Positions 13,361 through 13,946 of a stretch of 64,000 nucleotides of DNA are shown here, piece by piece. The DNA is from Escherichia coli. GTDB lineage: Bacteria > Pseudomonadota > Gammaproteobacteria > Enterobacterales > Enterobacteriaceae. The notes under the pieces were generated by a model. That model did no database searches, was not told the DNA's origin, and was given only the letters and a program-made list of their open reading frames with translations. The position numbers and the translations under genes are program-made. The stretch lies in assembly GCF_045037415.1 (NCBI RefSeq), contig NZ_CP173438.1. One strand, given 5' to 3'. Each line of letters begins with the position of its first letter. Within the stretch, counting starts at the first letter, position 1.

Positions 13361-13843
13361 TTGTGACCATTAAACATTTATCAAAAATCTACTACTAACA
13401 TAGCAAAACTACAATTAACATAACCTCAATAGCCCCAACATGAAGAATAATATGAATAGCTGCTCTATTTATTTCCGCTAGTTCAAGATAAATATTTCCG
13501 CGCATCGATTAAAGACGATGCATCGTTTTCTGCGATGGGAATAGTCATAAAAGAAAAACCAAGTCGTTTCTGATAACAAAATACAACCGATAAAAATTAC
13601 CTTATTTTTTAATAAGATATAAAAAATATCTTAACGAAAAATATATTATGTATCGTCAACCCATGCTCATGGAAGATTATTTTTTGAGCACACAACCGCA
13701 GCTAACACCTTACAATTAACAAATTTGCATCAATCCGCCATCAATTTACACACATTATTATGTGATATTTGCCAACCGCTAAATATGCGTTTTGTTATCT
13801 ACGTATAAAAACAGCAACTTCAATGTCTTAATGGCAGTTTTTC

Positions 13844-13857
13844 TTGATTTTAATCAG
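13844..13857 (+). promoter_or_regulatory. candidate FNR box upstream of dcuC (TTGAT-N4-ATCAG)
   Basis: ttgattttaatcag read directly, ~96 bp upstream of the dcuC ATG; FNR consensus is TTGAT-N4-ATCAA. Confidence 0.45.
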
Positions 13858-13946
13858 CATTCACCGCCAATTTATTGGGCATATTTTTTCCTTAACTTTT
13901 AGGAATTTTTTATTATTTACTTTGGGGCCTGGAGACAGGAAAAATT

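What the first reader, a model, noticed from the sequence alone, without database searches (positions are those of the whole stretch)
13361..13946. Long AT-rich pagP-dcuC intergenic region with an FNR-like box
The 586-bp spacer is very AT-rich and contains TTGATTTTAATCAG (13844-13857), a near-consensus FNR site about 96 bp upstream of the dcuC ATG. This fits the known anaerobic induction of dcuC. The unusual length leaves room for additional regulatory elements or an untranslated RNA.
Basis: partly seen in the sequence, partly recalled or inferred. Interest (0 to 1): 0.25.

Follow-up and report, generated by a model that had tools for sequence, protein, structure and literature searches.

The report
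Known FNR site of dcuC promoter
The AT-rich gap between pagP and dcuC in this E. coli genome holds two back-to-back regulated promoters, and the FNR-like box is the already published, ChIP-confirmed oxygen-sensor site that switches dcuC on without oxygen, so the finding is correct but ordinary.

Summary
The pagP-dcuC spacer is 13361-13946, 586 bp and 31% G+C. TTGATTTTAATCAG lies at 13844-13857, centred 96.5 bp before the dcuC ATG.

The box is identical in K-12, where Myers et al. 2013 list this 14-mer as the FNR site under an FNR ChIP-seq peak and class dcuC as directly FNR-activated.

What I add: the box sits at one fixed distance from a conserved -10-like hexamer (CATATT, 13880-13885) in 76 of 76 Enterobacteriaceae loci that carry the hexamer. 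If the hexamer spans -12 to -7, FNR is centred at -41.5, a class II promoter with a start near 13892. A published anaerobic sigma-70 peak maps about 11 bp from that point. The start itself is not mapped in any data I could reach.

The rest of the spacer holds:
- the PhoP-type pagP promoter (13368-13422);
- a constrained upstream block with a conserved direct-repeat element (13715-13734);
- a central stretch of about 180 bp evolving at the neutral rate.

H-NS covers the whole spacer in K-12. I found no support for an untranslated RNA or small protein. The only hint is a Shigella candidate (Ssr31) known from RT-PCR alone.

Verdict: already known, low interest.

The parts
12800..13360 (-). pagP (crcA) coding sequence, 186 aa, transcribed away from the spacer
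   Evidence: ORF list. Annotated as pagP in K-12 and in the 100%-identical strain SK1144.
13375..13380 (-). Predicted pagP -10 hexamer TAAATG preceded by TG (extended -10). Implied start near 13368-13371, giving a leader of about 10 nt.
   Evidence: Read from the sequence. The published anaerobic sigma-70 ChIP-seq peak at 655,742 converts to window ~13396. Inferred, not mapped here.
13385..13422 (-). Two tandem 18-nt repeats with 20-bp spacing carrying PhoP-box-like half-sites. The upstream copy, TGTTAATTGTAGTTTTG (13404-13420), ends 23 nt before the -10 hexamer.
   Evidence: Repeat family D1. PhoP-pattern matches with 3 mismatches. The Salmonella pagP promoter has the same geometry, a box 23 nt before the -10 (Zwir 2012). 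The E. coli crcA PhoP site is reported 32 bp from its start site (Harari 2010). PhoP-P shifts the Shigella pagP promoter fragment.
13423..13540 (.). pagP-proximal constrained block of unassigned function. Contains a weak hairpin (13502-13521) that is not conserved.
   Evidence: 5-8% divergence from K-12, against 16.9% at pagP four-fold sites. The hairpin was flagged but is broken in Escherichia sp. MOD1 and E. whittamii.
13541..13717 (.). Central spacer evolving at about the neutral rate. Includes an AT-rich palindrome at 13603-13643.
   Evidence: 13-20% divergence from K-12, similar to four-fold sites (dcuC 8.3%, pagP 16.9%). 48 polymorphic columns among six E. coli haplotypes. Palindrome I2 gives a fold z of -4.3 but is not kept in K-12.
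13715..13734 (-). Distal conserved element ATTAACAAATTTGCATCAAT. Read on the minus strand it is TGATG-N6-TGTTAAT, a direct repeat with 11-bp period. It is a candidate response-regulator site (ArcA-P or PhoP-P); the factor is unknown.
   Evidence: TTAACA is the most widespread hexamer upstream of the FNR box (51 of 77 loci) and peaks 110-139 bp before it (alignment). The 11-bp repeat was found. The 11-mer TACAATTAACA is shared with the pagP PhoP-like box (family D4). An ArcA PWM site is reported for this spacer without ChIP signal (Park 2013).
13718..13843 (+). Constrained block upstream of the dcuC promoter
   Evidence: 1.7-5% divergence from K-12 and nearly invariant among E. coli haplotypes and across Escherichia species.
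13844..13857 (+). FNR binding site TTGATTTTAATCAG
   Evidence: Sequence. Identical in K-12. Published FNR PWM site and ChIP-seq peak. Present in 78 of 80 Enterobacteriaceae dcuC upstream regions, with variable N4 and conserved half-sites.
13871..13885 (+). Conserved block TTTATTGGGCATATT containing the predicted -10 hexamer CATATT (13880-13885)
   Evidence: Columns at least 90% conserved in an ungapped alignment of 78 distinct sequences. With GGCA.ATT used as an independent anchor, the best FNR match is at offset 0 in 76 of 76 loci.
13890..13895 (+). Predicted dcuC transcription start (about 13892), which places FNR at -41.5
   Evidence: Inferred from the hexamer position. The published anaerobic sigma-70 peak at 655,235 converts to window ~13903. 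Not mapped.
13892..13946 (+). Predicted dcuC leader, about 55 nt and T-rich, with Shine-Dalgarno AGGA at 13937-13940
   Evidence: Sequence. No Rfam match.
13947..15332 (+). dcuC coding sequence, 461 aa
   Evidence: ORF list and annotation.

Best explanation
The spacer is a divergent control region of E. coli with one activator-dependent promoter at each end.

At the dcuC end, the [4Fe-4S] form of FNR binds TTGATTTTAATCAG (13844-13857) under anaerobiosis. The site is centred 29.5 bp upstream of a weak -10 hexamer (CATATT, 13880-13885) and there is no usable -35. FNR therefore acts as a class II activator at about -41.5 and recruits sigma-70 RNA polymerase to start near 13892.

At the pagP end, a PhoP-type direct-repeat box (13404-13420) lies 23 nt upstream of an extended -10 (13375-13382) and drives pagP.

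The AT-rich DNA between the promoters is coated by H-NS. It consists of constrained regulatory blocks next to each promoter and a central stretch of about 180 bp that drifts neutrally. It encodes no RNA or protein of its own.

Shown by published experiment: FNR occupancy at this exact sequence, FNR- and O2-dependent dcuC expression, two sigma-70 peaks, and H-NS coverage. Shown here: identity of the site with K-12, conservation of the site and of its spacing to the hexamer, and the pattern of constraint. Inferred: the exact start sites and the class II mechanism.
For: The site is identical in K-12.

Myers 2013 reports:
- an FNR ChIP-seq summit at 655,298;
- the PWM site CTGATTAAAATCAA at 655,281 (12.38 bits, ln p -10.96);
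- dcuC in Category 1, directly activated;
- an aerobic/anaerobic expression ratio of 0.05;
- anaerobic sigma-70 peaks at 655,235 and 655,742.

These convert to window positions ~13840, 13844-13857, ~13903 and ~13396. I checked the conversion with the published sigma-54 motif at 655,846. It predicts 13292, and the motif is at 13286-13302.

78 of 80 Enterobacteriaceae loci carry the box, with a variable N4 spacer. The spacing to GGCA.ATT is fixed in 76 of 76 loci.

The consensus scan finds no sigma-70 promoter in the spacer, against 4.6 expected, which fits activator dependence.

H-NS ChIP-chip regions 654,590-655,558 and 655,584-656,283 cover the spacer.

Constraint is strong at both ends and absent in the centre.

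Reviews state that dcuC is FNR-activated and not under DcuSR control.

Against: No mapped 5' end for dcuC or pagP was available to me. Myers et al. note for dcuC 'TSS not in peak region', meaning the start site then annotated in EcoCyc or Kim et al. lies outside the FNR peak. An additional or different promoter cannot be excluded.

The -10 hexamer is weak (4 of 6), and position 13892 is a T, so the true start may be 2-3 nt away.

The sigma-70 peak at 655,235 is not in the table of peaks with a significant O2-dependent change; only 655,742 is.

The PhoP-like box has 3 mismatches to the consensus, and which of the two tandem repeats PhoP uses is not settled.

All ChIP data are from K-12, not from this strain.
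Confidence: 0.88

Rival explanations
1. FNR binds the box, but dcuC is transcribed mainly from a different, more distant start site. The site would then act from a non-class-II position, or together with an upstream activator, and the conserved GGCA.ATT block would be something other than a -10 element.
For: Myers et al. flag 'TSS not in peak region' for dcuC. The conserved block extends beyond a hexamer (TTTATT.GGCAcATT). dcuC expression falls 4.1-fold in an arcA mutant, and an ArcA PWM site is predicted in the spacer.
Against: The spacing between box and hexamer is invariant in 76 of 76 loci and equals the class II distance. A sigma-70 peak lies about 11 bp from the predicted start. In the same study, 19 of 23 FNR-activated promoters with a known start have the site at -41.5 +/- 4. 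The consensus scan finds no alternative sigma-70 promoter.
Confidence: 0.1
2. The spacer also encodes an independent small RNA on the pagP strand, the homologue of the Shigella flexneri candidate Ssr31. This would account for part of its length.
For: Wang et al. 2016 predicted a 295-nt unit (Ssr31) in the pagP/dcuC spacer of S. flexneri 301, on the pagP strand, and scored it positive by RT-PCR. A weak terminator-like hairpin exists on the minus strand at 13537-13521.
Against: RT-PCR cannot tell a discrete sRNA from read-through or pervasive transcription. No Northern blot or 5' end was reported for Ssr31. There is no Rfam match at E <= 1 and no consensus promoter on either strand. The stretch it would cover evolves at the neutral rate within E. 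coli. The hairpins are not conserved in other Escherichia. No fold z-score on the minus strand falls below about -2. Nothing is annotated there in K-12 or in RefSeq genomes. I could not map the Shigella coordinates exactly.
Confidence: 0.07
3. The FNR-like box is a chance match in AT-rich DNA with no function.
For: 8.2% of composition-matched shuffles of the spacer contain a match of equal quality.
Against: Published in vivo FNR occupancy at this exact sequence. Conservation of both half-sites with a free spacer across about 80 species. Fixed register with the -10 block.
Confidence: 0.01

Closest known systems
dcuC promoter FNR site of E. coli K-12 (Zientz et al. 1999; Myers et al. 2013, PLoS Genet 9:e1003565)
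   Same: The 14-mer and its surroundings are identical from 13778 to the ATG, apart from 3 substitutions outside the box and hexamer. The flanking genes are the same. It is the orthologous site.
   Different: Nothing functional. This strain carries a different haplotype of the central spacer: 92% identity to K-12 overall, and at least 99% to 622 of 5,378 complete E. coli genomes.
Class II FNR-activated promoters (site at -41.5, e.g. dmsA, narG, FF-melR type)
   Same: Near-consensus TTGAT-N4-ATCAA in place of a -35 element, a weak -10, and a fixed 29.5-bp distance from the site centre to the hexamer.
   Different: The downstream half-site is ATCAG rather than ATCAA in most of the Enterobacteriaceae loci examined (ATCAT in a few). 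The start site is not experimentally mapped in the data I could reach.
Salmonella pagP promoter, PhoP architecture IV (Zwir et al. 2012, PMC3335776)
   Same: A direct-orientation PhoP box 23 nt upstream of the -10 hexamer, a very short leader, and divergent arrangement with dcuC.
   Different: The E. coli box is more degenerate (TGTTAA-N5-GTTTTG) and is tandemly duplicated with 20-bp spacing. The second, distal footprinted box of Salmonella has no clear sequence counterpart here.
H-NS-bound AT-rich divergent intergenic regions of enterobacteria
   Same: 31% G+C, complete H-NS ChIP-chip coverage in K-12, and both promoters dependent on activators.
   Different: FNR binding at this site was similar in wild type and in the hns stpA mutant (0.87 vs 0.86), so H-NS does not mask the site.

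Membership tests
FNR-activated class II promoter | DNA site matching TTGAT-N4-ATCAA | tested here: met
   9 of 10 positions at 13844-13857. By composition alone the chance is 8%.
FNR-activated class II promoter | FNR occupies the site in vivo under anaerobiosis | not testable with these tools
   Published for the identical K-12 sequence: ChIP-seq summit 655,298, ChIP-chip peak 655,340, PWM site 655,281. Identity of the sequence was shown.
FNR-activated class II promoter | Expression depends on FNR and anaerobiosis | not testable with these tools
   Published: dcuC is 'Activated' in the WT vs fnr comparison (Table S8), and the aerobic/anaerobic ratio is 0.05 (Table S12). Reviews citing Zientz 1999 agree.
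FNR-activated class II promoter | Site centred near -41.5 relative to the transcription start | tested here: inconclusive
   The start is not mapped. The conserved -10-like hexamer lies 29.5 bp from the site centre in 76 of 76 loci, and a sigma-70 peak lies about 11 bp from the predicted start. Myers et al. report that the then-annotated TSS lay outside the peak.
FNR-activated class II promoter | Site conserved in orthologous promoters | tested here: met
   78 of 80 Enterobacteriaceae loci. Half-sites are kept and the N4 spacer varies (TTTA, TTCA, TTGC, TTCG, GCTC and others).
Independent small RNA gene | Own promoter and intrinsic terminator | tested here: not met
   No consensus promoter on either strand. 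Only two weak hairpins with poor T-runs.
Independent small RNA gene | Sequence or structure conserved beyond neutral expectation | tested here: not met
   The central 13541-17717 stretch, read as 13541-13717, diverges 13-20% from K-12, like four-fold sites. The hairpin at 13502-13521 is broken in other Escherichia. No Rfam match.
Independent small RNA gene | Discrete transcript detected | not testable with these tools
   Only RT-PCR for Shigella Ssr31. No Northern blot or 5' end.
PhoP-activated promoter (pagP) | PhoP box (T/G)GTTTA-N5-(T/G)GTTTA upstream of the -10 | tested here: inconclusive
   The best matches have 2-3 mismatches (13371-13387, 13404-13420, 13415-13431, minus strand). The geometry matches Salmonella. 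PhoP dependence and binding are published for E. coli and Shigella.
Small protein gene in the spacer | Open reading frame kept intact among strains | tested here: not met
   The only ATG-initiated ORF (13395-13505, minus strand) has a stop at codon 6 in K-12 and O157 and a frameshift in SE11.

The most novel reading that the evidence does not exclude
The distal conserved direct repeat at 13715-13734 (minus strand TGATG-N6-TGTTAAT, 11-bp period) lies about 128 bp upstream of the FNR box and about 355 bp upstream of pagP. It may be a shared response-regulator site, ArcA-P or PhoP-P, through which one bound protein co-activates both divergent genes under anaerobiosis. That would explain two published observations: pagP and dcuC both drop in an arcA mutant, and pagP is induced without oxygen although it is not in the table of FNR-dependent operons.
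Probability: 0.2. Interest if true: 0.3.

Novelty: already known. Interest (0 to 1): 0.08.

Why it matters
It matters little beyond annotation. The FNR control of dcuC is textbook knowledge and this exact site has been in genome-wide FNR data since 2013.

The small gains here are three:
- A comparative argument across about 80 species that the promoter is class II with a start near 13892. This fills the 'TSS not in peak region' gap left in the published table.
- A map showing which parts of the 586 bp are constrained and which drift.
- A conserved distal repeat that could be tested as the predicted but never ChIP-confirmed ArcA site shared by pagP and dcuC.

Tried and rejected
- **Rfam scan.** I scanned 12300-14300 at E <= 1. 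Nothing fell in the spacer; the only real hit is the cspA-type thermoregulator over cspE.

- **Small ORFs.** I checked the four small ORFs in the spacer. None is conserved as a reading frame.

- **Terminator-like hairpin.** The hairpin at 13502-13521 on the plus strand carries a G-C to G-U change in K-12 that looked like RNA-level conservation. The stem is destroyed in Escherichia sp. MOD1 and E. whittamii, so I rejected it.

- **AT palindrome.** The palindrome at 13603-13643 gives the only strong fold z-score, -4.3. It lies in the neutral hot spot and is not kept in K-12, so I rejected it as a functional structure.

- **Sigma-54 promoter at the FNR box.** TGGCAG-N6-TTGAT at 13832-13848 resembles a sigma-54 promoter, but the spacing is one base too long and the upstream part is not conserved. 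The published RpoN gSELEX peak for 'dcuC/pagP' is explained instead by the sigma-54 site inside pagP.

- **MITE-like inverted repeat.** Repeat I1 (13432-13450 with 13910-13928) would enclose the conserved dcuC promoter, so I treat it as chance.

- **ArcA consensus.** The 15-mer GTTAATTAAATGTTA has no match with up to 3 mismatches in the spacer. I could not recover the location of the PWM site predicted by Park et al..

- **Start-site data.** The held supplements of Kim 2012 and Cho 2014 have no dcuC or pagP start site. Thomason 2015 and Zientz 1999 are not held.

- **Second Salmonella PhoP box.** It has no clear counterpart in E. coli.

Full report
**What is there**

The window is E. coli. It is 97.8% identical to K-12 MG1655 over 10 kb around the finding, and its spacer is 100% identical to that of several RefSeq E. 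coli chromosomes such as SK1144.

pagP (186 aa) runs on the minus strand from 13360 down to 12800. dcuC (461 aa) runs on the plus strand from 13947. The two genes are divergent and the spacer between them, 13361-13946, is 586 bp.

Its G+C content is 0.31, against 0.515 for the window. TTGATTTTAATCAG is at 13844-13857, as reported. It matches 9 of 10 specified positions of TTGAT-N4-ATCAA, and its centre lies 96.5 bp before the ATG.

**Is the box more than chance?**

On sequence alone, only weakly. 8.2% of 5000 dinucleotide shuffles of the spacer contain an equally good match.

The decisive evidence comes from elsewhere.

- **Identity with K-12.** The K-12 spacer carries the identical 14-mer at the same distance from dcuC.
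- **Published FNR binding.** Myers et al. 2013 (PMC3688515) list CTGATTAAAATCAA, its reverse complement, at U00096.2 position 655,281 as the FNR PWM site (12.38 bits, ln p = -10.96). It lies under an FNR ChIP-seq peak with summit 655,298.
- **Published regulation.** The same study places dcuC in Category 1, directly activated by FNR, with an aerobic/anaerobic expression ratio of 0.05.
- **Reviews.** Reviews citing Zientz et al. 1999 say that dcuC is FNR-activated and not under DcuSR control.

I converted K-12 coordinates with window = 13947 - (x - 655,191). As a check, the published sigma-54 motif at 655,846 should fall at 13292, and it is at 13286-13302. With this conversion the FNR summit maps to about 13840.

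**Conservation**

I fetched 80 loci encoding DcuC from one genome per species of Enterobacteriaceae. A divergent pagP lies upstream of dcuC in about half of them, 300-900 bp away.

78 of the 80 loci have TTGA(T/C)-N4-(A/G/T)TCA(G/T) within 200 bp of the ATG, mostly 90-105 bp before it. The half-sites are kept while the N4 spacer varies freely. That pattern is the signature of a protein-binding site.

An ungapped alignment anchored on the box shows a second block conserved in at least 90% of sequences, tttaTT.GGCAcATT. Anchoring on the box could bias this result. I therefore re-anchored on GGCA.ATT alone. 76 of 80 loci have it, and in all 76 the best FNR match within +/-10 bp sits at exactly the same offset.

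In this window the hexamer is CATATT at 13880-13885. It keeps the A at position 2 and the T at position 6. If it spans -12 to -7, the start is near 13892 and FNR is centred at -41.5, the class II position.

Two further observations fit this:

- The published anaerobic sigma-70 ChIP-seq peak at 655,235 converts to about 13903, some 11 bp from the predicted start.
- The consensus scan finds no sigma-70 promoter anywhere in this AT-rich spacer, although 4.6 are expected by chance. Both promoters therefore depend on activators.

The caveat is that no mapped 5' end was available to me. Myers et al. write 'TSS not in peak region' for dcuC, meaning the start then listed in EcoCyc or Kim et al. lay outside the FNR peak. 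The class II architecture is therefore a strong inference, not an observation.

**The other end of the spacer**

Immediately upstream of pagP are two tandem 18-nt repeats 20 bp apart (13385-13402 and 13405-13422). On the pagP strand they read TATGTTA(G/A)T(A/T)GTAG(A/T)TTT and carry PhoP-box-like half-sites.

The upstream copy, TGTTAATTGTAGTTTTG (13420-13404), ends 23 nt before TAAATG (13380-13375), which is preceded by TG. This is the same geometry as the footprinted Salmonella pagP promoter: architecture IV, a box 23 nt before the -10, and a 16-nt leader (Zwir 2012).

Published support includes:

- a PhoP site 32 bp from the crcA start in E. coli;
- PhoP-P gel shifts in Shigella;
- an anaerobic sigma-70 peak at 655,742, which converts to about 13396.

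**The middle of the spacer**

H-NS ChIP-chip regions 654,590-655,558 and 655,584-656,283 in K-12 convert to about 13580-14548 and 12855-13554. H-NS therefore covers the whole spacer, all of pagP and the first 600 bp of dcuC.

I compared this strain with K-12 in 60-bp bins. As a neutral benchmark I used four-fold degenerate sites, which differ by 8.3% in dcuC and 16.9% in pagP.

| Region | Divergence from K-12 |
|---|---|
| pagP-proximal 180 bp | 5-8% |
| Central 13541-13717 | 13-20% |
| dcuC-proximal 230 bp | 0-5% |

The centre thus evolves at about the neutral rate and both ends are constrained. Six E. coli haplotypes show the same picture.

This also explains why the spacer as a whole is only 92% identical to K-12 while the flanks are about 98% identical. 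One strain, CX08, carries an IS1A in the spacer.

Inside the constrained dcuC-side block there is one element conserved beyond Escherichia: ATTAACA-N7/8-CATCA at 13715-13734. TTAACA is the most widespread hexamer upstream of the box (51 of 77 loci), and its positions pile up 110-139 bp before the box. On the minus strand it reads TGATG-N6-TGTTAAT, a direct repeat with 11-bp period. It shares the 11-mer TACAATTAACA with the pagP PhoP-like box.

Direct repeats at 11 bp are typical of ArcA-P and PhoP-P sites. Park et al. 2013 report that dcuC drops 4.1-fold and pagP 2.8-fold in an arcA mutant. They also report that an ArcA PWM site of at least 15 bits exists in this spacer without ChIP signal.

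I could not tell whether their site is this element or the pagP-proximal repeats. In Klebsiella the matching TTAAC hits are the pagP PhoP box itself. The identity of the factor stays open.

**An untranslated RNA or small protein?**

I found no support for either.

- Rfam gives nothing in the spacer at E <= 1.
- The plus-strand hairpin at 13502-13521 and the minus-strand hairpin at 13537-13521 have weak T-runs. The plus-strand one is not conserved in other Escherichia.
- The only significant fold signal (z = -4.3, 13571-13690, plus strand) comes from an AT palindrome in the neutral hot spot that K-12 does not keep.
- The single ATG-initiated ORF is interrupted in K-12, O157 and SE11.
- Neither K-12 nor RefSeq annotation places any feature there.

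One published hint exists. Wang et al. 2016 predicted a 295-nt unit, Ssr31, in the pagP/dcuC spacer of S. flexneri on the pagP strand, and scored it positive by RT-PCR. RT-PCR cannot separate a discrete sRNA from read-through. The region it would span is unconstrained, so I rate this reading at about 7%.

**Verdict**

The site is, however, the known and ChIP-validated FNR site of dcuC, so the finding is already known and of low interest.

Three things are new here, all modest:

- the comparative evidence for a class II architecture with a start near 13892;
- the constraint map of the spacer;
- the conserved distal repeat, as a concrete candidate for the predicted shared ArcA (or PhoP) site.

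Noticed in passing
window 13286-13302 (minus strand), inside pagP: An exact copy of TTGGTAAAGTTTTTGCT. This is the intragenic sense sigma-54 binding site IS06 reported in pagP by ChIP-seq (Bonocora 2015). It probably also explains the RpoN gSELEX peak assigned to 'dcuC/pagP' at 655,760 (Shimada 2021).
   Followed up: partly
window 12368-12816 (minus strand): Rfam cspA thermoregulator (RF01766) match of 136 bits, full length, over cspE and its leader. The weak leader and sRNA hits at 12367-12471 are most likely the cspE terminator region.
   Followed up: no
window 13361-13946 versus 5,378 E. coli genomes: The spacer falls into distinct haplotype classes: 622 genomes at >=99% identity to this window, 408 at 95-99%, and 4,348 at 90-95%. 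pagP four-fold sites differ 16.9% from K-12, twice the dcuC value, so the pagP side of the locus is unusually divergent within the species.
   Followed up: partly
L086 788-1485 (E. coli CX08), equivalent to window ~13731: An IS1A element is inserted in the spacer, leaving 216 bp next to dcuC. It cuts within the distal conserved element and separates pagP from the dcuC-side block.
   Followed up: no
window 13361-13430 (pagP promoter); literature data for K-12: pagP is induced anaerobically (aerobic/anaerobic ratio 0.29). Its sigma-70 peak rises about 10-fold without oxygen (37 to 366). pagP drops 2.8-fold in an arcA mutant. Yet it is absent from the table of FNR-dependent operons. The route of this oxygen control is not explained.
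   Followed up: partly
window 13200-14100: The scan found no consensus sigma-70 promoter on either strand of this AT-rich stretch, although shuffles give 4.6 +/- 2.0. This is a depletion of spurious promoters in H-NS-bound DNA.
   Followed up: no
window 11098-11892 (minus strand): An intact 264-aa ORF, annotated in strain SK1144 as deaminated glutathione amidase. The K-12 counterpart, ybeM, is annotated as a pseudogene.
   Followed up: no
L044 (Citrobacter amalonaticus S646), 160 bp upstream of dcuC: This is the only locus in which both the FNR box and the -10 block are missing. The sequence upstream of about -60 is G+C-rich and unrelated, as if the promoter had been replaced by an insertion or rearrangement.
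   Followed up: no
window 13857 and the aligned position in 78 loci: The last base of the FNR site is G (ATCAG) in most of the Enterobacteriaceae loci examined and T (ATCAT) in a few. The consensus A does not appear in any of them. The imperfect half-site seems to be kept, which may tune promoter strength or reflect an overlapping constraint.
   Followed up: no
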